Positions 7,717 through 35,558 of a stretch of DNA of 64,000 bases are shown here, in pieces. The translations under genes were made by a program, and so were the position numbers. Under the pieces are notes generated by a model, which saw only the letters and a list, made by a program, of their open reading frames with translations, had not been told where the DNA came from and did no database searches. The stretch is from a virus. Within the stretch, counting starts at the first letter, position 1. The number at the start of each line of letters is the position of its first letter. Location: IMG/VR virus record IMGVR_UViG_3300048999_000166, positions 32,001 through 96,000 of that record. One strand, given 5' to 3'.

Positions 7717-10700
7717 GTGGCCGTCATTCATCTTGACGTGACCGGTGACTGTACTGGCGCGGTCGATGCACTCAACAACACCTCGGCGGCGGTCGATGGC
7801 CTGCACGGCAAGACCGCCACCGTCGGGGTGATGGTCACGGGCGGCTCGGAGGCGGAGTCTGGCCTTCGGGGGGTCACCGCCGCCGGTCGCGAACTGAGCG
7901 GCACCACCATCTCGGTCGTCCTGGACTCCAGCGCGATCGCTATGGCCAGCAGCGATCTGGGCGGTCTGCGAGGCCAGGTTCGGGGCGCCGCCAGTGACCT
8001 CGACGCGATGGCCGGCAGCCGCGCGTTCAGCATCACCGACGGTGGCTCGATCAGCGGGATGTCGCGCGAGCTGGTGTCCGCGAACGCCGCGGCGAGCGGC
8101 CTGGCCCAGACGATGGGCCAGGCCGGCCACGCCGCGGGAGCCGCGGCGTCCGGCATCGACACCACCACCGCCTCGCTCGGCGGACTCTCCGCCACCGGCG
8201 CCGACGCGAGCGCCGGCCTCGACTCGATGACCAACTCCGCTCAGGAGCTGGAGAAGCGTCTCGGGTCGACCTCGCAGGTGGCCAAGGACGCTCGAACGGA
8301 GCTGAACGCGCTCGCGGGCGCGGGCGGTGGAGGCGGTGGTGGGGGAGCGCTGTCCGGCGGATTCGGGAGTTCATCTCCCGCGGTTCGAGCGGCCGCCGCC
8401 AACTACGCGCACTCCGGTTACGTCGCCCAGTACGGTCAGCCGACGCCTCCGGGCGGCGGTGGAGGCGGGGGCGGCGGTGGAGGCGGGGGCGGAGGAGGCG
8501 GAAGCGCGGGCGCTGGAGGGGCCCGCGACGATGAGGGCGGTGGCATGCGTGGCATGCACGGCCTGCTCCAAGGCGCCCAGATGGTTGGCCTCGTCGCTCT
8601 CGGTTCGGAGGCGGTTGCCGCCGCGGCCGGCGTCATGTCGGTCAACGCGGTCGTCAAGGACACTCCCGCGTTGGCACGCGCCGCCAACCAGTCGATGCTG
8701 GAGTTCGCCAAGGGGGTGCGCTCCGGTTCCGCTGGTGCCGCCGCCGAAGGGGTGCCCGCGATCCATGCGCTGGGTGCTGAGCTAGGCGCGCTCGGCAACG
8801 AGGTCGGGAAGATCGGTGGTGCGCAACTCGGCAATGTGTTGTCGAGCGTGGGCCAGCTGGCCGGCGGCGCCACGAGCGCACTGCAGGCTCTAGAGCCCGC
8901 GATCGGTCCGGCCATCTCTGGTCTGACCAACGTCGGGATGGGGCTGCTGGACGGTATCGCCAACCCGCAGGTTGCAGCAGCGGTGGGCGGGCTGGGCGAT
9001 GCGCTCTCCCAGCCCGGCATTCGCGCCGCGACCGCGGACATCGCTGCCGGCGTCGTGACTGACAGCGCGATCATCACCAGCGCCGCTGGCGACATCCTCA
9101 ACACGGTCGGGAACGTGTTGGAGGGAGTCACCGGCAGTCCCGAGGGCGCTCAGGACGTCAGTGGCGCCCTCATGGGCGGTGGTGGAGCCGCGTGGGCGGC
9201 CAGCAAGTTCGGTGTCAAGGGAGCCGGGCTGGGCATTGCTGGCGCGCTGGGTACCGCCGCCTTCGCTCAGGCTCAGATGGAGCAGTCGGCGGGCCGCGAA
9301 GACATGGTCGCGCCCGGAATGATCGGCGGCGGACTGGGCGCCATGATCGGCGGCATGGTCGGTGGTCCCGGCGGAGCTGTCGCCGGCTACATGGCTGGCG
9401 ACGCCCTCATGGAGGGCGCGCAGAACCTGCCCACCGCCGCTACGGATCCCTTCGATTCGAGCAAGACCGATAACTGGCAGAGCGCGGCCCTGGGCGTGGG
9501 CGGTGGCGCCCTAGCCGGTGGCGCCATCGGTGGCCTGATCGGTGGTGTGCTCCTGCCAGGCATCGGGGCGATCCCGGGTGCCATGATCGGAGCCACCCTC
9601 GGTGGTGGTGGCGGAGCCGCCTACGCGGCCTACGGCCCAGGCTCGGGCGGTGGAGGTGGTTGGGAGCAACATCTGGCCAGTGGCCAGAGCGTCCAGCCCA
9701 GTACCGCCGCTGGCAAGTACGGCTGGAGCGAGGACGCTCAGGGCAATCTGACGCCCAACAATGTCGCTCCTACCGCGGCTCAGCAGGCTGCCGCTACCGC
9801 GCAAGGCGGTACCGACCAGTCCATCATCCAGGCGGGCGGAAAGCTTACTTCCCCGGATGACATCCCGGACTCGATGAAGCCCGACCAGCCGAAAATCCCA
9901 GTGGGCGGGGGTTCTGGCTCGAAGGGGCTACAGGGCGACTCGGGGGCGCAGGTCTCCCAGCGCCAGCTCCAAGAGCTGGGAGTGACAAGCTCGTCCACTG
10001 CCGGTGGTCTTAACCAGACCGCTGCGAGCGCCCAGAACACCACAGCTGCGATGAATCGGCTGAGCAGCAGCGGGAGCAGTGTCAGCGCTCCGATGGAGCA
10101 GGTTTCGTCGGCCAGTACCCGGATGAATTCCGCGCTTAGCTTGACGGGCCAAAGTGCTGGTCAGACCACCCAGTCGCTCAACCGGACCGCTCAGGCTACG
10201 ACCTCGGTGGCGCAGGCGGTCACGCAGACCGCCTCCGCCGCACAGCCCGCGATGCAGTCCATCGCCAAACTGCCGGAACAGGCGTCGACCGCGATGTCCT
10301 CGGCCAGCTCGTCGGTGTCGTCCGGTGGTTCGAAGATGGGCGGGGAGATCCCAACCTCGATGGCCTCGGGAGTCAGGCAGCAGACCAGCCAGGTCTGTGA
10401 CGCGACAGCTGAAATGGCGGCGGCTGCCGCAAACTGCGGTAAGGCAGGCCTGAACGCGCACTCTCCGTCGCAGATCTTCGTCGACCTCGGTGTCGGTATC
10501 GGCGATGGTTTGGCGATCGGTGTTCGTGACAGCACTCCTACCGCAACCGCCGCAGTAGGCAGTGCGATGAAGCAGGTGGTGGCCGCGGGGCAAGCGGGCC
10601 TCGCGGCGGCGTCCCCCTCCGGGGAGTTCCGCGCGATGGGCCAGCAGGCTGTGGCCAACATGGCCAGCGGTACGCAAGGTTCCGGTCAGGCCGCCGCTGC

Positions 10701-30531: not shown

Positions 30532-32196
30532 CTAGATCGCTCCTCGTGCGAAGTCGGCCAGCAGGTTCGGGACGTTCGAGTCGAAGCCCGAGACATCCAG
30601 CGTTCCCTCGTCGGCCGGGTCCGCGATCGTGAACTCAGTCGGCGTCAGCGCGACCACCGCCAGCCGGGTGTTGATGCCGGAGGTCTCGCGGTAGCGCTTC
30701 AGAGCCTGCTGCGGGTGGATCGCCCCCGCCCACGTCTCGTTGTCGGTCAGCACCTCGATGACGTCGTACTCCTTCTTCAGCGCGCCCGCCCACAGCATGG
30801 GCAGCGCACAATCAGTGGAGCCGAACGGGAGCCGCTCGATGGTGCGTACCGCATCGTCGAGCCGCTGACGCGGGCTGAGCGCCAGCTCGCTCACGTCGGT
30901 GAACTGCTGGCTCCGACCCCAACCGCCACCGGTGAAGCCGATGACGTCGCACGCGGGCTCCGTCGCCATCGTGAACAGCGCCAGCGCCGCCGTGACCTCC
31001 CGGCAGGTGATCGCCGAGTAGTTCGGCTGGCGGTAGCCGCCGCGACCCTTGCGGGGCGCGCCCTGAGCCGGGCTACCCATCGAGCCGGACACGTCCAGCG
31101 CGAGCAGGTGCCGCTTGTTCGAGGGCTCGAAGGTCCCGAAGGTCCGGTAGAACGCGGAGTCGAGCGCGTCCACGATCTGACGCTTCGGGCTCCAGGTGTT
31201 CTCCCCCATCATCGACTGGCCGCGGCTGTAGGTACGCAGCGCGACCAGCGCGTTGATCGGGTGGATCCGGGCCTTGCGCAGCTTGTCGGTGTCCTGCAGC
31301 TGCGCGGTCACCGTCGCCAGCGACTGCGCCGAGTTGAACACCCCCAGGTTCGTCAGCCGCGGCAGCTGCCGGATCAGCGCGGTCATCGGGACACCAGCGG
31401 CGATCAGGGCGTGCCACACCTCCGCCTGAGTCACCGCGGCGTCGGGCAGCGCCTCCCAGGGCAGCCGGAAATTAGTGACCAGCTCGACCCACTGCGCGAC
31501 GGTGGTCGCCTCCTGCGCCTTCTCGAACGCATCCACCAGCGCGGGCTTGACCTTCGGGTCGCTGTCCTTGCCCTCGTGCTTGACCATCCAGTCGAACAGC
31601 GCCTTGCGCTCCGGCTCGTCGGTCTGCGGGTGGGACAGGCGCAGCAGATCGCGGTGGCTCCAGCCCTCGCGCTGCCGGTACTTGATCGCCTGGTAGGCCA
31701 CGGACTCGACCGGCTTATCGAGGTACCAGTTGCGCACCGCCCGACGCAGCCCACCGCCCCAGCCGCGGAACTGCTCCGCGTAGCGGGTGAACAGGTAGAG
31801 GTGCGTGCCGGTGCGGCACACCTTCGAGACCGCATCGTTGGCCGCCCGCCGGGCCGCCTCTGTGCCGCCCAGCGCCGACACAGCGGCGAGCGCGAAGATG
31901 GCCGGGTTCTGTCGCGGCGCTCGACCCGCGACCGAGATCTCGACGATGCGCTCGACCAGCCACTCACCTCGGTCACGCGCGGCGGCCAGGATGACCTGCG
32001 CGTTGTCCTTGGTGAGGTCGGCCTCGGTCACGTAGTAGGTACCGCCATCGGTGCCGAGGGTGAGGAAGCGGTTGACCCGCGTCTCATCGCCGACCTGGAA
32101 GACATAGCCGCCCGCGTTGTTCTTGACCTGGCGGGGGTCAGCCTTCTCCGACTGGGGAGTCTTGCGGGTACTGATTGCGGTCAGTGCGTCGGCCAT
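30532..32196 (-). CDS. rsr: Ro60 / TROVE-domain RNA-binding protein (Rsr ortholog)
   Basis: NNAGGYVFQV...RFLTLGTDGGTYYV, RQREGWSHRDLLRLSHP, PMTALIRQLPRLT, RIHPINAL, vWA MIDAS LALDVSGSM, GSTDCALPM, TDNETWAG, LDVSGFDS. ATG 32196 has RBS AGAGGAAAG. Confidence 0.95.
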   Translation of the reverse strand: MADALTAISTRKTPQSEKADPRQVKNNAGGYVFQVGDETRVNRFLTLGTDGGTYYVTEADLTKDNAQVILAAARDRGEWLVERIVEISVAGRAPRQNPAIFALAAVSALGGTEAARRAANDAVSKVCRTGTHLYLFTRYAEQFRGWGGGLRRAVRNWYLDKPVESVAYQAIKYRQREGWSHRDLLRLSHPQTDEPERKALFDWMVKHEGKDSDPKVKPALVDAFEKAQEATTVAQWVELVTNFRLPWEALPDAAVTQAEVWHALIAAGVPMTALIRQLPRLTNLGVFNSAQSLATVTAQLQDTDKLRKARIHPINALVALRTYSRGQSMMGENTWSPKRQIVDALDSAFYRTFGTFEPSNKRHLLALDVSGSMGSPAQGAPRKGRGGYRQPNYSAITCREVTAALALFTMATEPACDVIGFTGGGWGRSQQFTDVSELALSPRQRLDDAVRTIERLPFGSTDCALPMLWAGALKKEYDVIEVLTDNETWAGAIHPQQALKRYRETSGINTRLAVVALTPTEFTIADPADEGTLDVSGFDSNVPNLLADFARGAI

Positions 32197-32218
32197 GGTC
32201 TTTCCTCTCATGAGTGGA

Positions 32219-32331
32219 CCCGCGCGGGCATGCACATATCGAGACTGGAGGTCCCACCTCCAGCAGGTAAAGCCTGCCTTGGTGCGACTCCCGAAGCCGG
32301 AAGATAACCAGCCTCGTCCGGCCCGCGCGGG
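32219..32331 (-). ncRNA. Y-RNA-like unit 1 (adjacent to rsr)
   Basis: 5' CCCGCGCGGGC-CGG...GCUGGUUAUC...CAUG-CCCGCGCGGG 3'. Confidence 0.75.
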
Positions 32332-32342
32332 CCCGTGTAGGG

Positions 32343-32407
32343 GATGGGCATGTGAGCGACAACCGGTTCAAGTGAGAGTTGTGTTAACCGACTGTCTCCG
32401 GCCCATC
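32343..32407 (-). ncRNA. Y-RNA-like unit 2 (minimal)
   Basis: GAUGGGC-CGG...GUCGGUUAAC...CCGG...CAUG-CCCAUC. Confidence 0.8.
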
Positions 32408-32428
32408 TTCACTATAGAATTGTATTGC

Positions 32429-32543
32429 GACAGCGGGCATGTTGTGACGTACCGGGGTTAAGCGGCATCCAGCCCGAGCGAGGAATCGAACCTCGACCTT
32501 CTTTTTCGCAGAAAGATAACCGATGTGTCTCCGGCCCGCTGTC
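32429..32543 (-). ncRNA. Y-RNA-like unit 3 (T-arm payload)
   Basis: GACAGCGGGC-CGG...AUCGGUUAUC...CGAGG-UUCGAUU-CCUCG...CCGG...CAUG-CCCGCUGUC. Confidence 0.85.
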
Positions 32544-32563
32544 CATTATCTAGTTTTATAGGG

Positions 32564-32630
32564 GGACAGGCATGTGATGATGACCGGTGTTTGTCCGTTA
32601 CAAGGGTAACCGACCATCTCCGGCCTGTCC
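32564..32630 (-). ncRNA. Y-RNA-like unit 4 (minimal)
   Basis: GGACAGGC-CGG...GUCGGUUACC...CCGG...CAUG-CCUGUCC. Confidence 0.8.
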
Positions 32631-32649
32631 TTCAATATCGAGTTGTAGA

Positions 32650-32782
32650 GGGATGGGCATGGAGTTCGACGACCGGTACGGAGGCCTAGGGGTGGGAGTC
32701 GAACCCACGCCTCGGGACCGGAGTCCCGCGTGCTCCCGGACTGCACTACCCCAGAGGTAACCGACTGCCTTCGGCCCATCCT
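32650..32782 (-). ncRNA. Y-RNA-like unit 5 (normal-order tRNA body as payload)
   Basis: GGAUGGGC-CGAA...GUCGGUUACC, then acceptor, D arm GUGC/GCAC, CGGGAC-UCCG-GUCCCG, T arm GUGGG-UUCGACU-CCCAC, ...CCGG...CAUG-CCCAUCC. Confidence 0.85.
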
Positions 32783-32793
32783 TGGCTATGCGA

Positions 32794-32922
32794 ACGCGGA
32801 CATGTAAGTGACTGCCGGGGAAAGTGACTTACCAATTCGTCCACACTGTGTGCTAACACAGCGGCGGGACTCGAACCCGCATCCCCACCTTTCGAGGGTA
32901 ACCGACCGTCGTCCGGCCCGCG
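32794..32922 (-). ncRNA. Y-RNA-like unit 6 (YrlA-type permuted tRNA mimic)
   Basis: ACGCGGGC-CGG...GUCGGUUACC; T arm GCGGG-UUCGAGU-CCCGC, acceptor-like hairpin, D-loop-like GAAUUGGUAAG; CAUG-UCCGCGU. Confidence 0.85.
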
Positions 32923-32941
32923 TCCAATATTGAGTTATAGG

Positions 32942-33010
32942 AGCCCGGACTCGCATCCCATCGGTGTTAGTTCCTCCGCCCGGGCGGAGAGGCACCGTGT
33001 GCCTGGGGCT
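32942..33010 (-). ncRNA. Unclassified structured element inside the array
   Basis: Nested stems AGCCC/GGGCU, CGGUG/CACCG, CUCCGC-CCGG-GCGGAG; lacks the Y scaffold; strand inferred from context. Confidence 0.4.
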
Positions 33011-33021
33011 AGTCCTAGGTA

Positions 33022-33132
33022 GAACGGACATGGTGAGCAGCACCGGAGTGCGGACTCGAACCGCTCGAAACTCAGGTGTTATCCCTCGTCTCCGTCAGCC
33101 AGATGCGATAACCGATACTCGTCCGGCCCGTT
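33022..33132 (-). ncRNA. Y-RNA-like unit 7
   Basis: GAACGGGC-CGG...AUCGGUUAUC...GCGG-UUCGAGU-CCGC...CCGG...CAUG-UCCGUUC. Confidence 0.85.
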
Positions 33133-33154
33133 CCTAATATGAAATTGTTTAGTT

Positions 33155-33254
33155 GGACAGGCATGTTCAGGCAGAACCAGATCTACCATGAAGGCGATCC
33201 TCGCGGAGCCTTTCACCGGAGTCGAACCGATAACTGATTCCAGTCGGCCTGTCC
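33155..33254 (-). ncRNA. Y-RNA-like unit 8 (compact permuted tRNA mimic)
   Basis: GGACAGGC-CGA...AUCAGUUAUC-GG-UUCGACU-CCGG...AUGGUAGA...CUGG...CAUG-CCUGUCC. Confidence 0.8.
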
Positions 33255-33263
33255 TCATTAGGC

Positions 33264-33400
33264 GGATGGGCATGTTTGTGGCTGCCGGAAAAATTTCTAT
33301 TGCTCTACCAACTGAGCTACGCTCCCACGCGAGTGAAAACGACTGGACTCGAACCAGCGACCCACAGATTATTGGTTAACCGACGACCGCCGGCCCATCC
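33264..33400 (-). ncRNA. Y-RNA-like unit 9 (YrlA-type)
   Basis: GGAUGGGC-CGG...GUCGGUUAAC; T arm GCUGG-UUCGAGU-CCAGU; acceptor hairpin capped by UCGC; D arm UAGCUC-AGUUGGUA-GAGC; CAUG-CCCAUCC. Confidence 0.9.
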
Positions 33401-33416
33401 TCACTATTGAGTTAGA

Positions 33417-33555
33417 CGAGGGCGGGCATGTAATGACCGCCGGAATAAACGCGTGCTACCGTTACACCACCCCGAGTTGTGGTCCCGGGGCCAGGAGTCA
33501 AACCTGGTCTACGCCCTCCAAATGGGTAACCGACATGTCGTTCGGCCTGCCCTCG
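33417..33555 (-). ncRNA. Y-RNA-like unit 10 (YrlA-type, first in the transcript)
   Basis: CGAGGGCAGGC-CGAA...GUCGGUUACC; T arm CCAGG-UUUGACU-CCUGG; CCCCGGG-ACCACAA-CUCGGGG; D arm GUGU-AACGGUA-GCAC; CAUG-CCCGCCCUCG. Confidence 0.9.
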
Positions 33556-33608
33556 CGGGTAACGGTAGCGTGTTGCCGTTCAAGATCGCCACCGGGTTAC
33601 CCTTCTGG

Positions 33609-34142
33609 CTAAAACTGCAGCTCAGGCACACCTTCCAGCTCGATGCCGTAGCGTCGGTAGACCTTGACCGTGTTCTCCCCGGTGAGGTCCGTTTCGGAGT
33701 ACCCGAGCAGCCCCGCGACGCGGATCACCTCCGCCTTCGTCGGCGCCTCGATCTCGGCGTAGGGCGGAATGCCCGGCCAGTGGTCCACCTCGACGCTGGC
33801 GCTGCCTACTAGATAGCTGGTGCGACGATTCTCCTGGTAGGCCTTCGCCCGGAACCCCATCATCGTGAGCATCGTGTTGGTGCCCTCGAAGTCACTGACC
33901 TCGATCTCGATCTCGTGAGTACCGTCGATGCCATCGTGCAGGATGTGCTTGACGGTGAGGGTGGCGTTCCCACCGTCGTCGCGCAGCCGGATCCACCGTG
34001 AAGGATCGTCGCGCGCGATGTCGTAGACGTAGCGGCGCATCAAGCGCGTATCCCCGAACCGGTAGCCCCCGTTGTCGTGGATCTTCCGCTCGAACGCGTC
34101 CGGGTCGATGTTCAGGATCTTGGCTTCATGCTCGATTGGCAT
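33609..34142 (-). CDS. CYTH-domain (class IV adenylate cyclase-like) triphosphate tunnel metalloenzyme
   Basis: N-terminal IEHEAK (ExExK), WIRLR, LTVK, EIEIEV, YQENRR, YAEIEA. ATG 34142 has RBS GAAGGAG. Confidence 0.85.
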   Translation of the reverse strand: MPIEHEAKILNIDPDAFERKIHDNGGYRFGDTRLMRRYVYDIARDDPSRWIRLRDDGGNATLTVKHILHDGIDGTHEIEIEVSDFEGTNTMLTMMGFRAKAYQENRRTSYLVGSASVEVDHWPGIPPYAEIEAPTKAEVIRVAGLLGYSETDLTGENTVKVYRRYGIELEGVPELQF

Positions 34143-34171
34143 GATGGTGCTCCTTCGGCTGAGGTTCGTAC

Positions 34172-35236
34172 CTATGCTACCGCTAGGGCGCTGGCTTCGG
34201 TGGTGCGCAGCCCGACGATCTCGTCGGGCAGTGAGCTGGCCAGGAACTCCTCCAGCGGCAGGCAGAGGTCCATCCGCTGAATGCACACCCCGACCTGGTA
34301 GGTGCCCACCCGGTCGACGTAGAGCCGGACCCCGTAGAAGCCCTCCTGGCAGTCCTTGTCGTTGTTGAACCGGCAGCTCGCGCACGTCTCCGGCAGTCGC
34401 ACCGGCCGGATCTCCTTGAAGTAGACGGTGCGCCCGTCGGGCAGCTCGTAGCTGGTGCGCGCGCCCGACACCCCAGCGGTTACGTAGTGGGCCCGCGCGA
34501 CGGCCCCACGCTCGGCGAGGATGGCCTCGATCGCCTCGATGGAGATCGCCCCGTGGTCGAGGGAGTTGAGCAACCGCACGGACAGCTGGGGCGAGTACTC
34601 GTCCAGTAGCCGGTGTACCCGGGCGGCGTGGCTGTGGTCGAGCACCACGATGTTGGCGTCCGCCCGCACCCCGTGCGCCTCGCAGGTAGCGATCGACTCC
34701 TTCAGCGCCGCGATCTTGCGCTCCGCCAGCTCGACGTTACGGAAGCGGGTGTGCTGCACCTCCGCCAGCTCCGCCGCCGTCGTGCCGAAGACCGAGAAGT
34801 TGACCTTACGCAGCCCAGCGGAGGCAGCAGCCGGGATGACCGCCGCACCCCGCTCCCCATTCGAGGTCATCCGCACCCCGTAGCCGGCGTCGGACGCGAG
34901 CTGGGTCAGCTGCGCCAGCGATGGATGCAGCGTGGGCTCACCGCCGGTGAAGTGCACCTCCGACAGATCGAGCGCCTCGCGCAGCGAGGTGAGAGCTTCG
35001 GTGAAGCGCTCGTCGGGCCGCACCACTCCGGGCAGGAACGTGGCGCCATTGGTGGCCGCGTAGATGGACATCCGGCCGCTCGGACCGGCGGTGGTGAAGT
35101 CGCCCACGGGGCGCCGACGGTTGTCGGCGACGACCGGGGTTCCTTCGTTGTGGCAGAACGTGCAGGTGAACCCGCACGGATCGTGGATCTTGATACGGAG
35201 AGTGGCGTCCTTCTCGACGATGGTGGGCAAGTCCAT
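34172..35236 (-). CDS. Radical SAM protein, MoaA-like
   Basis: LRIKIHDPCGFTCTFCHNEG (CxxxCxxC), FTGGEPTL, MTSNG, C-terminal CASC...C..GFYGVRL twitch-like cysteines. Confidence 0.85.
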   Translation of the reverse strand: MDLPTIVEKDATLRIKIHDPCGFTCTFCHNEGTPVVADNRRRPVGDFTTAGPSGRMSIYAATNGATFLPGVVRPDERFTEALTSLREALDLSEVHFTGGEPTLHPSLAQLTQLASDAGYGVRMTSNGERGAAVIPAAASAGLRKVNFSVFGTTAAELAEVQHTRFRNVELAERKIAALKESIATCEAHGVRADANIVVLDHSHAARVHRLLDEYSPQLSVRLLNSLDHGAISIEAIEAILAERGAVARAHYVTAGVSGARTSYELPDGRTVYFKEIRPVRLPETCASCRFNNDKDCQEGFYGVRLYVDRVGTYQVGVCIQRMDLCLPLEEFLASSLPDEIVGLRTTEASALAVA

Positions 35237-35275
35237 GGCTGGGATCCTTTGATCGGTTGATGTGCTGCAGCGCGA

Positions 35276-35308
35276 AGCAACCCCCCGAGCTGTGCTCAGG
35301 GGGTTGCT
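35276..35308 (-). terminator. Hairpin between whiB and the radical SAM gene
   Basis: agcaaccccc..gagc-tgt-gctc..gggggttgct. Confidence 0.5.
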
Positions 35309-35318
35309 CGCCGGGGCG

Positions 35319-35558
35319 CTAGGCGGCTGTCCGCTCCAGTCGAAGCAGCCGGCGCCCATCCGCGGTCACGCCACCCCAGATGCCGACGTCGATGCCCTCA
35401 TCAAGGGCCATCGAGAGGCACTCTTCGCGCACCGGGCATGCCGAGCAGACCGCCAGGGCTTCCTGGGCGAACTCGGGCTTGGTGGACACCGGGAAGAAGA
35501 TCTCCGGGTCGACGCCGGTACGGCAGCTGGCGCGGTGACGCCAGTCAAAGGTGGTCAT
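35319..35558 (-). CDS. whiB: WhiB-family transcription factor
   Basis: WRHRASC...DPEIFFP...AVCSACPVREECL...GIWGG. Confidence 0.92.
   Translation of the reverse strand: MTTFDWRHRASCRTGVDPEIFFPVSTKPEFAQEALAVCSACPVREECLSMALDEGIDVGIWGGVTADGRRLLRLERTAA

What the first reader, a model, noticed from the sequence alone, without database searches (positions are those of the whole stretch)
30532..33555. Phage Ro60 preceded by a tandem array of ten Y-RNA-like RNAs sharing one scaffold with interchangeable payloads
SEEN: directly upstream of a full-length Ro60/TROVE gene, on the same (-) strand, are ten units of 65-139 nt (32219-32331, 32343-32407, 32429-32543, 32564-32630, 32650-32782, 32794-32922, 33022-33132, 33155-33254, 33264-33400, 33417-33555). 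Each reads 5'-[stem]GGC-CG(G/A)-N5-7-(G/A)UCGG-UUA(U/C/A)C-[variable]-CCGG-N5-N4-6-CAUG-(C/U)C[stem]-3', with minor variants in units 1 and 8. The outer stem sequence changes from unit to unit but stays complementary, which is covariation. KNOWN: bacterial Ro60 binds Y/Yrl RNAs through a terminal helix with a bulged C (GNCGAA-type motif). In Deinococcus, Y RNA tethers Ro60 to PNPase, and YrlA-class RNAs carry tRNA-like domains. Ro60 with Y RNAs has been reported in some phage, but usually as one or two RNAs. INFERENCE: this is a modular RNP library in which one protein is loaded with about ten different adaptor or decoy RNAs. It could recruit different host enzymes, or act as bait for tRNA-targeting host defence nucleases and toxins.
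Basis: partly seen in the sequence, partly recalled or inferred. Interest (0 to 1): 0.93.

Follow-up and report, generated by a model that had tools for sequence, protein, structure and literature searches.

The report
Ten-unit Y-RNA array beside phage Ro60
A 122-kb phage, probably of Mycobacterium, carries ten small RNA genes in a row just ahead of its Ro60 gene; all share the Ro60-binding "handle" of actinobacterial Y RNAs but display different, mostly tRNA-like inserts, the largest case found here of an arrangement common in such phages and apparently undescribed.

Summary
Ten units of 65-139 nt lie at the stated coordinates on the Ro60 strand. A covariance model built from them finds exactly these ten in the 122-kb genome.

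All share one handle: a 7-14 bp terminal stem ending GGC/GYC, a bulged C, a 9-bp upper stem (UCGG:CCGG on top) and UUAYC. Both stems covary across 102 homologous units from 29 loci (95% of cells paired against 75% when shuffled; 15 of 18 pairs change on both sides).

The handle is the ordinary actinobacterial Y RNA handle. Nocardia-type chromosomes carry 2-3 such units before Ro60. The roughly 60 Ro60 phage loci sampled carry 1-9. So ten is the top of a continuous range, not a singular invention.

Payloads in this window:
- four permuted-tRNA (YrlA-type);
- two with a T arm plus other hairpins;
- two minimal;
- one with side hairpins;
- one complete cloverleaf with a dead anticodon loop, the only such unit among the 102.

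None displays a normal anticodon loop, which weakens the anticodon-nuclease bait idea.

I found no paper describing arrays of five or more units. Notes from this scan report comparable arrays beside Ro60-like genes on other DNA. Expression, processing and Ro60 binding remain untested.

The parts
30532..32196 (-). Ro60 (TROVE + vWA) gene, 554 aa. A ribosome-binding site (GAGAGGAAAG) and the ATG follow unit 1 by about 20 nt.
   Evidence: Pfam TROVE E 9e-45 and vWA_Ro60 E 2e-51. PDB 2NVO Rsr E 5e-110 and Xenopus/human Ro60 E about 1e-94. Third-position G+C 0.91.
32219..32331 (-). Unit 1, nearest to Ro60. The outer stem extends to 14 bp (32216-32334). The upper stem closes on a UUAUCUU loop, and two extra hairpins sit in the 3' linker.
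   Evidence: R1 59.1 bits; stems; folding z-score -4.6.
32343..32407 (-). Unit 2: minimal Y RNA of 65 nt with a 21-nt pyrimidine-rich loop (YrlB-like).
   Evidence: R1 55.8 bits; fold; payload.
32429..32543 (-). Unit 3: handle, a hairpin, a T arm (GGUUCGAUUC) and a small hairpin.
   Evidence: R1 74 bits; payload.
32564..32630 (-). Unit 4: minimal Y RNA of 67 nt.
   Evidence: R1 62.3 bits; fold.
32650..32782 (-). Unit 5: handle carrying a complete tRNA cloverleaf in normal order (32684-32755). It has a 7-bp acceptor stem, D arm and T arm, but only a 6-nt (or 4-nt) loop where the anticodon loop should be.
   Evidence: Rfam tRNA 47 bits against a gathering score of 29. ARAGORN calls 'tRNA-??? (cc)'. 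It is the only ARAGORN call among 102 homologous units. R1 67.8 bits.
32794..32922 (-). Unit 6: YrlA-type payload (T arm, closed acceptor-like stem, D arm).
   Evidence: R1 86 bits; Rfam YrlA 20.9 bits; payload.
32923..33021 (-). A 99-nt element between units 7 and 6. It has no Ro60 handle and holds two hairpins enclosed by a short helix. Its 3' end carries the spacer motif.
   Evidence: No significant R1 match (6.1 bits, E 0.78) and no Rfam match. Folding z-score -1.2. It differs by 33% from the sister phage, yet all three helices are kept, with CCCA/UGGG replaced by UUGA/UCAA.
33022..33132 (-). Unit 7: handle, other stem-loops and a 3'-placed T arm.
   Evidence: R1 65.4 bits; payload.
33155..33254 (-). 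Unit 8: variant handle (AUCAG:CUGG...), with the T arm directly after UUAUC, then a hairpin and a GGUAGA loop.
   Evidence: R1 53.3 bits; I worked out the 9-bp upper stem UGGAAUCAG:CUGGUUCUG by hand from the sequence; payload.
33264..33400 (-). Unit 9: YrlA-type permuted tRNA. The order is T arm, 7-bp acceptor-like stem closed by a loop, U8-A9, D arm (GCUCAGUUGGUAGAGC).
   Evidence: R1 78.3 bits. Rfam YrlA 34.3 bits over the full model, below the gathering score of 69. The acceptor-like stem is kept by compensatory changes in the sister phage.
33417..33555 (-). Unit 10, first in the direction of transcription: YrlA-type payload. The outer stem extends to 12 bp starting at G33556.
   Evidence: R1 74.3 bits; stems; payload.
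33556..33608 (-). Leader between the upstream CYTH gene and unit 10. A -10-like TACCGT (33567-33562) ends 6 nt before the first base of unit 10's stem, so this may be the array promoter (inferred).
   Evidence: Read from the sequence. Relatives have TACAGT inside a GTAAC-N3-GTTAC palindrome at the same place. The sigma-70 consensus scan did not call it.
32410..33413 (-). Spacer motif AACUNNAUANUG at 33402-33413, 32925-32936, 32633-32644, 32544-32555 and 32410-32421, each ending 2-3 nt before a unit. It may be a processing or protein-binding signal.
   Evidence: Five of the six matches in the 64-kb window lie in the array, against 2.0 expected by chance. A related motif is present in the arrays of L063 and L002.

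Best explanation
This is a tandem array of ten Y RNA genes belonging to the phage's own Ro60 gene.

Shown:
- Ten non-coding units on the Ro60 strand share the handle that accompanies Ro60 throughout Actinobacteria and their phages.
- Both helices of the handle covary.
- The handle is the most conserved part between two sister phages, while the payloads change.

Inferred by analogy with M. smegmatis, where YrlA and YrlB lie upstream of rsr, are cut from one precursor and are bound by Rsr (PMC4201824):
- The array is transcribed from a promoter just before unit 10, probably through into Ro60.
- The A/U-rich spacers are cut and trimmed back to the terminal stems.
- Each RNA then binds the Ro60 ring through the bulged-C helix.

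The variable payload is the effector end. In seven units it shows tRNA parts. Four units are permuted tRNAs, three of them with clear 7-9 bp acceptor-like stems, and one unit is a whole cloverleaf. These are probably recognised by host tRNA enzymes (RNase P, CCA-adding enzyme, TruB or Dus), or they tether Ro60 to host exoribonucleases such as PNPase. The phage itself encodes no PNPase, RtcB or CCA-adding enzyme.

The net effect would be several differently equipped Ro60 particles that redirect host RNA decay or surveillance during infection. Which partners and targets are involved is unknown.
For: - Ro60 is full length.
- There are exactly ten R1 matches in 122 kb, all on the Ro60 strand.
- The region is non-coding.
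- Covariation across 102 units from 29 loci: 95.1% of cells paired against 74.7% when shuffled, 15 of 18 pairs with changes on both sides, covariation score 0.621 against 0.106 or less for slid partners.
- The same handle stands beside Ro60 on the same strand in Nocardia, Myceligenerans and Actinomycetospora chromosomes (2-3 units), in cultured phages Cashline, Farewell, Catera, Myrna, prophiGD43A-5, BlueNGold, A3Wally, Amabiko and Beuffert (2-7 units), and in IMG/VR contigs (up to 9 units in L048).
- Units 9 and 6 give YrlA matches (34 and 21 bits). The unit in Catera, a phage I recall (not checked here) as sharing cluster C1 with ET08, for which Chen et al. 2014 reported a YrlA, scores only 36 bits.
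- The published M. smegmatis YrlA and YrlB probe sequences imply UUACC and UAUC elements like the UUAYC seen here.
- Between sister phages the handle differs by about 1.8%, payloads by 6.9% and spacers by 5%. The three changes I checked in handle helices and the one in unit 8's T arm keep pairing; of payload stems, unit 9's acceptor-like stem is kept by compensatory changes and unit 6's middle stem loses one pair.
- The phage has no PNPase, RtcB or CCA-adding enzyme.
- Precedents: Rsr-Y RNA-PNPase in D. radiodurans and S. [quoted passage not shown]
Against:
- No unit reaches the Rfam YrlA gathering score (best 34.3 against 69).
- The published 5'-strand motif GNCGAAN0-1G is met strictly by only 2 of the 10 units and 17 of 102 relatives; most read GCCGGA.
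- The simple consensus scan finds no convincing sigma-70 promoter or intrinsic terminator.
- Folding energies are no better than shuffles for five units (z-scores -0.3 to -1.8).
- The covariation alignment was fitted to the model, which leans towards the structure.
- The partner enzymes and the benefit to the phage are pure inference.
Confidence: 0.8

Rival explanations
1. Counter-defence decoys. The tRNA-like payloads, with or without Ro60, soak up host toxins or defence nucleases that attack tRNAs. The large number of units in phages reflects an arms race.
For: - Phages carry 1-10 units against 2-3 in bacterial chromosomes.
- Payloads turn over quickly. The sister phage has an extra 7-bp hairpin inserted in unit 9 although its Ro60 is 98% identical.
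- A Ro60-like protein of phage Bas63 was reported to counter the ppl defence system (PMC11482910).
- In several phages the Y units sit among tRNA genes.
Against: - No payload has a normal 7-nt anticodon loop, the usual target of anticodon nucleases.
- The bacterial homologues with the same handle are not counter-defence elements.
- No defence system or toxin partner is identifiable here.
Confidence: 0.15
2. Mainly a cis-acting leader. The ten handles in the 5' untranslated region titrate Ro60 and so autoregulate its own mRNA, or they stabilise it, rather than acting as free RNAs.
For: - The array abuts the Ro60 start with no terminator between them.
- The Ro60-proximal unit has an unusually long 12-14 bp stem in the window and in its relatives.
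Against: - In A3Wally the units lie 2.4 kb from Ro60, beyond an endolysin gene.
- In BlueNGold and L088 units lie downstream of Ro60.
- M. smegmatis YrlA and YrlB accumulate as free, Rsr-bound RNAs (PMC4201824).
- Ten different payloads are not needed for titration.
Confidence: 0.08
3. Decayed remains of a phage tRNA gene cluster, or a selfish repeat, with no present function.
For: - Seven payloads contain tRNA T arms.
- Some homologous units in GenBank records are annotated as tRNAs.
Against: - The handle is conserved and covaries across 29 loci.
- It is linked to Ro60 by strand and position in every locus examined.
- The changes checked in handle helices between sister phages keep pairing.
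- No copies occur elsewhere in the genome.
Confidence: 0.02

Closest known systems
Actinobacterial YrlA/YrlB Y RNAs with Rsr (M. smegmatis; Chen et al. 2014, PMC4201824; Rfam RF02553)
   Same: - Encoded directly upstream of Ro60 on the same strand.
- Terminal helix formed by the 5' and 3' ends.
- One class has a permuted tRNA module (T arm, acceptor-like stem, D arm) and one is a short hairpin class.
- The UUAYC element is implied by the published probe sequences.
- In M. smegmatis the RNAs are processed from one precursor.
   Different: - Ten units instead of two.
- Extra payload types: a whole cloverleaf, T-arm-only units and side hairpins.
- Both strands of the Ro60-binding helix are recognisable here, whereas the paper says only the 5' strand is in YrlA.
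- Scores are below the Rfam gathering threshold.
- Most units read GCCGGA rather than GNCGAA.
D. radiodurans Yrn1/Yrn2-Rsr-PNPase and S. Typhimurium YrlA-Rsr-PNPase particles
   Same: A Ro60 ring plus a Y RNA whose distal module recruits an effector. More than one Y RNA is encoded per locus.
   Different: No PNPase link is shown here. The phage encodes no PNPase, so any partner must come from the host.
Thermus phage phiLo Ro60 with Yrl1 and Yrl2 (PMC12135203)
   Same: A phage-encoded Ro60 with Y-like RNAs upstream of the gene. Binding to Ro60 and to host PNPase was shown in vitro.
   Different: Two RNAs, not ten. They were identified by a CGAA motif and no tRNA-like payloads were reported.
Metazoan Y RNAs and nematode stem-bulge RNAs (Rfam RF01656 ceN72-3_ceN74-2)
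   Same: A lower stem with a bulged C, an upper stem and a UUAUC-type element directly after it, with a CA(C/U)(U/A)UG-type 3' strand. Units 9 and 2 give 26 and 24 bits to the sbRNA model.
   Different: These scores are below the threshold of 38 bits. No match to the vertebrate Y_RNA model was reported at E up to 10. Metazoan loops are not tRNA-like. The likeness may be convergence forced by the shared Ro60 surface.
Ro60-like gp130 next to the tRNA block of phage Bas63 (PMC11482910)
   Same: A phage Ro60-type protein adjacent to tRNA-like genes, with a reported counter-defence phenotype.
   Different: A different protein lineage and a different host phylum. The partner RNAs there are only conjectured.

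Membership tests
Ro60 / Rsr (TROVE + vWA) | TROVE HEAT-repeat ring domain followed by a vWA domain, at full length | tested here: met
   PF05731 E 9e-45 and PF25045 E 2e-51. Aligns end to end with 2NVO (E 5e-110) and with 1YVP/9NEN (E about 1e-94).
Bacterial/phage Y RNA (criteria of Chen et al. 2014) | Encoded within 4 kb of Ro60 on the same strand | tested here: met
   All ten units lie 23-1360 nt upstream of the Ro60 start on the - strand.
Bacterial/phage Y RNA (criteria of Chen et al. 2014) | Helix formed by the 5' and 3' ends carrying the Ro60-binding motif GNCGAAN0-1G on the 5' strand | tested here: inconclusive
   The helix is present in all ten units and covaries. The strict motif is met only in units 5 and 10. 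Seven units read GCCGG(A/C) and one reads GCCGAC. Among relatives the strict motif is met in 17 of 102.
YrlA (Rfam RF02553) | Score at or above the family's gathering threshold (69 bits) | tested here: not met
   The best is unit 9 at 34.3 bits, then unit 6 at 20.9 bits. The corresponding units of Catera, Cashline, Farewell and prophiGD43A-5 also reach only 36-42 bits, so the model under-detects actinophage YrlA.
YrlA (architecture) | tRNA-like module in the order T arm, acceptor-like stem-loop, D arm | tested here: met
   Clearly present in units 6, 9 and 10 and degenerate in unit 8. The motif classifier puts 4 window units and 34 of 102 units in this order. Not present in units 1, 2, 3, 4, 5 and 7.
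Y RNA (functional definition) | Physically bound and stabilised by Ro60 in vivo | not testable with these tools
   Needs immunoprecipitation or gel-shift assays.
tRNA (payload of unit 5) | Cloverleaf scoring above the Rfam tRNA threshold | tested here: met
   47 bits against a gathering score of 29 at 32684-32755.
tRNA (payload of unit 5) | 7-nt anticodon loop with a readable anticodon | tested here: not met
   ARAGORN reports a 2-nt 'anticodon' (cc). The loop is CUCCGG, or UCCG if the closing C-G pairs. It is a mimic, not a decoding tRNA.
Nematode sbRNA / metazoan Y RNA | Score at or above the Rfam threshold for RF01656 or a match to Y_RNA | tested here: not met
   RF01656 gives 26.4 and 24.1 bits against 38. 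No Y_RNA match at E up to 10.

The most novel reading that the evidence does not exclude
Actinophages have expanded the host-type two-RNA Ro60 system into a fast-evolving library of up to ten Ro60 adaptors. The tRNA-like heads (permuted tRNAs and a whole anticodon-less cloverleaf) each capture a different host tRNA-handling or RNA-decay enzyme. The library would serve as a counter-defence or host-takeover device, and the phage would deliver the entire system to hosts that have no Ro60 of their own.
Probability: 0.25. Interest if true: 0.85.

Novelty: new variant of a known kind. Interest (0 to 1): 0.62.

Why it matters
Forty years after their discovery, the function of Ro60 and Y RNAs is still only partly understood. 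Bacterial work rests on systems with one or two Y RNAs.

A phage that packs ten differently equipped Y RNAs in front of its Ro60 gene is a natural experiment in what the variable module is for. So are the related cultured phages of M. smegmatis, Gordonia, Streptomyces and Microbacterium, which carry 2-7 units.

These phages are genetically tractable, so deletion, pull-down and RNA-sequencing tests are straightforward. The survey also shows that Y RNAs in phage genomes are under-annotated, and some are probably filed as tRNAs or small proteins.

Tried and rejected
- An eleventh unit at 9352-9489: it lies inside a large ORF on the other strand and has no outer stem, so I treat it as chance.
- A hidden unit in the 99-nt gap at 32923-33021: R1 gives 6.1 bits even with filters off. 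It is a different structured element.
- Rfam membership: no unit passes any family threshold, apart from the tRNA match inside unit 5.
- One promoter per unit: the nATAnT-like hexamers end only 2-3 nt before the stems, so a start site 6-8 nt downstream would truncate the stem. Three spacers are only 9-11 nt long. I judged processing of one precursor more likely. The consensus scan found nothing useful.
- Conserved gene neighbours: the CYTH, radical SAM, 2OG-oxygenase and 91-aa genes are not found at other Ro60 loci, except in the sister phage. Ro60 plus its array therefore moves as a module of its own.
- Orthologous payloads in other phages: only the T-arm, D-arm and handle segments match.
- Close relatives among cultured phages: none at nucleotide level. 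The major head protein is 24% identical at best.
- The supplement of Chen et al. 2014 that lists phage YrlAs is not held, and the two Wolin-lab reviews are not held. An earlier mention of multi-unit phage arrays in those texts therefore cannot be excluded.
- An integron attC-like array: considered and dropped, because there are no cassettes between the units and the units are linked to Ro60.

Full report
**Source.** The window is part of an IMG/VR virus record of 122,429 bp with direct terminal repeats and 64.8% G+C. It has no nucleotide-level relative among 50,697 phage records. Its major head protein is at best 24% identical to that of any cultured phage.

A sister genome whose Ro60 is 98% identical sits on two contigs of a metagenome-assembled genome labelled Mycobacterium sp.. 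This is the only host clue. The only Ro60 gene in that assembly is the phage's own.

**Observation.** The gene at 30532-32196 (-) is a full-length Ro60:
- TROVE E 9e-45 and vWA_Ro60 E 2e-51;
- E 5e-110 to D. radiodurans Rsr and about 1e-94 to Xenopus and human Ro60.

The 1.34 kb upstream of it (58% G+C) holds no ORF with the third-position G+C bias of real genes (0.45-0.67 against 0.88-0.91).

Each unit has:
- a terminal stem of 7-14 bp ending GGC/G(C/U)C, with seven different stem sequences among the ten;
- a bulged C;
- a G that can pair with the U of CAUG;
- an internal loop;
- a 9-bp upper stem whose top four pairs are UCGG:CCGG and whose middle pair is often mismatched;
- the element UUA(U/C/A)C.

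Units 1 and 8 are variants. In unit 1 the upper stem closes on a UUAUCUU loop and the extra hairpins hang in the 3' linker. Unit 8 uses AUCAG:CUGG.

The strict 5' motif occurs nowhere else in the genome. A covariance model built from the ten (R1) finds exactly ten matches in 122 kb, all on the Ro60 strand at 53-86 bits, while the reverse strand gives 10.8 bits or less. Because R1 was built from these ten, the informative part is that there is no eleventh match. A look-alike at 9352-9489 is chance.

**More than chance.** R1 finds homologous units beside Ro60, always on its strand, in every group of loci I fetched.

On an alignment of 102 units from 29 loci:
- 95.1% of pair cells are standard pairs, against 74.7% after shuffling and 29-44% when partners are slid by 1-3 columns;
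- 15 of 18 pairs show changes on both sides;
- the covariation score is 0.621, against 0.223 shuffled and 0.106 or less slid.

The alignment was fitted to the model, which flatters it somewhat, but the margin is large.

The sister phage gives an independent check:
- The handle differs by about 1.8%, once the re-built 3' arm of unit 9 is set aside.
- Payloads differ by 6.9% and spacers by 5%.
- The three changes I checked in handle helices (two G:C to G:U in CAUGCC, one A:U to G:U) and one in unit 8's T arm (U:G to U:A) keep pairing.
- In payload stems, the 7-bp acceptor-like stem of unit 9 is kept through several compensatory changes. One change in unit 6 breaks a pair in its middle stem.

**What it is.** The handle is not special to this phage. 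It is the general Y RNA handle of Actinobacteria.

- Chromosomes of Nocardia, Myceligenerans and Actinomycetospora carry 2-3 R1 units directly upstream of Ro60. This matches the published M. smegmatis arrangement, in which YrlA and YrlB lie upstream of rsr, are bound by Rsr and are processed from one precursor (PMC4201824).
- The probe sequences printed in that paper imply UUACC in YrlA and UAUC followed by a T arm in YrlB. This agrees with the UUAYC element here.
- Unit 9 matches the whole Rfam YrlA model at 34.3 bits and unit 6 partly. Both are below the 69-bit threshold.
- Catera scores only 36 bits on the same model. As I recall it (not checked here), Catera belongs to cluster C1 like ET08, for which Chen et al. 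reported a YrlA. The Rfam model is simply weak on this branch.
- The published 5'-strand motif GNCGAAN0-1G is met strictly by 2 of 10 units and 17 of 102 relatives. The majority read GCCGGA.
- The handle also resembles metazoan Y RNAs and nematode stem-bulge RNAs (bulged C, upper stem, UUAUC). It gives 26 and 24 bits to Rfam RF01656, below that family's threshold of 38. I treat this as a resemblance, perhaps imposed by the conserved Ro60 surface.

**Array size in context.**

| Source | Units per locus |
|---|---|
| Cashline, Farewell, Myrna, Amabiko | 2 |
| Catera | 3 |
| prophiGD43A-5, A3Wally, Beuffert | 5 |
| BlueNGold | 7 (three before Ro60, four among the tRNA genes after it) |
| IMG/VR contigs | 1-6 in most; 9 in L048, a 110-kb contig whose Ro60 is 58% identical |
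| This window | 10 |

Ten is therefore the largest of about 60 phage loci examined, at the top of a continuous range. The phage values exceed the bacterial 2-3.

I found no paper describing phage arrays of five or more Y RNAs. The literature speaks of one or two (PMC4201824, PMC12135203). Two reviews and one supplement that might say more are not held.

Notes from this scan report comparable arrays of 4-9 units beside Ro60-like (mostly DUF2828-type) genes in unrelated phages. I did not test those.

**Payloads.**
- Units 6, 9 and 10 are YrlA-type permuted tRNAs: T arm, a 7-9 bp acceptor-like stem closed by a loop, then a D arm, with the handle where the anticodon arm would be. In unit 9 the 3' half reads like the 5' end of a tRNA (GGGAGCG-UA-GCUCAGUUGGUAGAGC). 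Unit 8 is a degenerate version of this type.
- Units 3 and 7 have a T arm plus other hairpins.
- Units 2 and 4 are minimal, like YrlB.
- Unit 1 has side hairpins.
- Unit 5 carries a complete cloverleaf in normal order (Rfam tRNA 47 bits), but with a 6-nt or 4-nt loop in place of the anticodon loop. It is the only one of the 102 units that ARAGORN calls as a tRNA.

Across the 102 units the classes are 34 YrlA-order, 32 minimal, 20 T-arm-only, 15 other and 1 tRNA-order.

Payloads are not conserved between phages beyond the T and D motifs. The sister phage has even gained a 7-bp hairpin in unit 9. The phrase 'one scaffold, interchangeable payloads' is a fair description.

**How it probably works.** What is shown is the anatomy, the linkage to Ro60 and the selection on structure. 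The rest is inferred.
- A -10-like TACCGT ends 6 nt before the first base of unit 10's stem. Relatives have TACAGT inside a palindrome at the same place. There is no terminator-like site before Ro60.
- Three spacers are only 9-11 nt long. I therefore expect one precursor that includes Ro60, as in M. smegmatis.
- The A/U-rich spacers carry a motif, AACUNNAUANUG. Five of its six occurrences in the window lie in the array, and L063 and L002 share a related motif. They are the likely cleavage sites, followed by trimming to the stems.
- The handle would dock on Ro60, and the payload would engage host factors. [quoted passage not shown]
- The phage has none of these enzymes and only five tRNA genes.

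**Against the bait idea.** The lack of any normal anticodon loop argues against bait for anticodon nucleases. A counter-defence role of another kind remains possible. A Ro60-like protein of phage Bas63 was reported to counter the ppl system.

**Verdict.** The units are new members of the actinobacterial Y RNA family. The array as an organisation (ten units, varied payloads, a displayed cloverleaf) is a new variant of a known kind. It is interesting chiefly as the extreme of a widespread, tractable and apparently undescribed expansion in phages.

Noticed in passing
window 32923-33021 (-); L162 about 103-211: The 99-nt stretch between units 7 and 6 has no Ro60 handle but is a structured element in its own right. 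Two hairpins (GGCAC/GUGCC and CUCCGCC/GGCGGAG) are enclosed by a short helix. It differs by 33% from the sister phage while the flanks differ by 2-7%, yet all three helices persist, with CCCA/UGGG replaced by UUGA/UCAA. It has no Rfam match and its function is unknown.
   Followed up: partly
window 33402-33413, 32925-32936, 32633-32644, 32544-32555, 32410-32421 (-): The spacer motif AACUNNAUANUG, nearly the palindrome UCAAUAUUGA, ends 2-3 nt before five units. Only one other match, with a mismatch, occurs in the 64-kb window. Related motifs (ATAACTCGATATCGAA, ACAACTGGATAGCAA) lie in the arrays of L063 and L002. It could be a processing site, an operator or a promoter element.
   Followed up: partly
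L138 (G001:C619) and L162 (G001:C368): A sister phage (Ro60 98% identical) is split over two contigs of a Mycobacterium sp. metagenome-assembled genome. The assembly breaks inside the array at units 6 and 5. This is the only host clue. That assembly has no other Ro60 gene. The sister has three tandem 2OG-Fe(II) oxygenase paralogues where the window has one.
   Followed up: partly
L162, aligned with window 33264-33300: In the sister phage, unit 9 has gained a 7-bp hairpin (GCGUGGC...GCCAUGC) between the D arm and the 3' strand of the upper stem, and that strand itself is re-written while still pairing. This is payload remodelling between nearly identical genomes.
   Followed up: partly
L016 4247-4325 (prophiGD43A-5, MW584167); L134 6726-6814 (BlueNGold, OP297539): The GenBank features tRNA-Thr(tgt) and tRNA-Leu(gag) overlap clear YrlA-type Y units (R1 43 and 51 bits). 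ARAGORN reproduces both calls; in prophiGD43A-5 the call combines handle sequence with the unit's T arm. They are probably mis-annotations. In A3Wally a small 'hypothetical protein' (gp192) overlaps Y units.
   Followed up: partly
L134 6392-7025; L137 1411-2790; L135 1003-1591: In BlueNGold and Beuffert the Y units are interleaved with tRNA genes. In A3Wally a five-unit array lies 2.4 kb from Ro60, beyond the endolysin gene. The units therefore need not abut Ro60 and may share tRNA processing.
   Followed up: no
window 32216-32334; last units of L002, L047, L048, L005 and L013: The unit nearest to Ro60 has an extended G+C-rich outer stem of 12-14 bp in the window and in its relatives, formed partly by the flanks. 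It may act as a barrier or cleavage site between the RNA array and the Ro60 message.
   Followed up: no
L002, L047, L048 and L013, about 10-25 nt before the first unit: A conserved palindrome-like TGTAAC-N2-3-GTTACAGT containing a -10-like TACAGT precedes the first unit of several related arrays. It looks like a promoter overlapped by an operator. The window has TACCGT instead, plus a GGGTAAC...GTTACCC inverted repeat 31 nt apart.
   Followed up: no
window 33609-35359 (-): Directly upstream of the array are a CYTH-domain gene (possibly a triphosphatase; third-position G+C only 0.74) and a radical SAM gene. Their listed ORFs overlap by about 210 nt, so one start is probably mis-set. They are not conserved at other Ro60 loci.
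   Followed up: no
window, units 9-8 and 5-4: The outer stems repeat in order. Units 9 and 5 share GGAUGGGC, and units 8 and 4 share GGACAGGC. This hints at an old duplication of a block of units followed by payload replacement.
   Followed up: no
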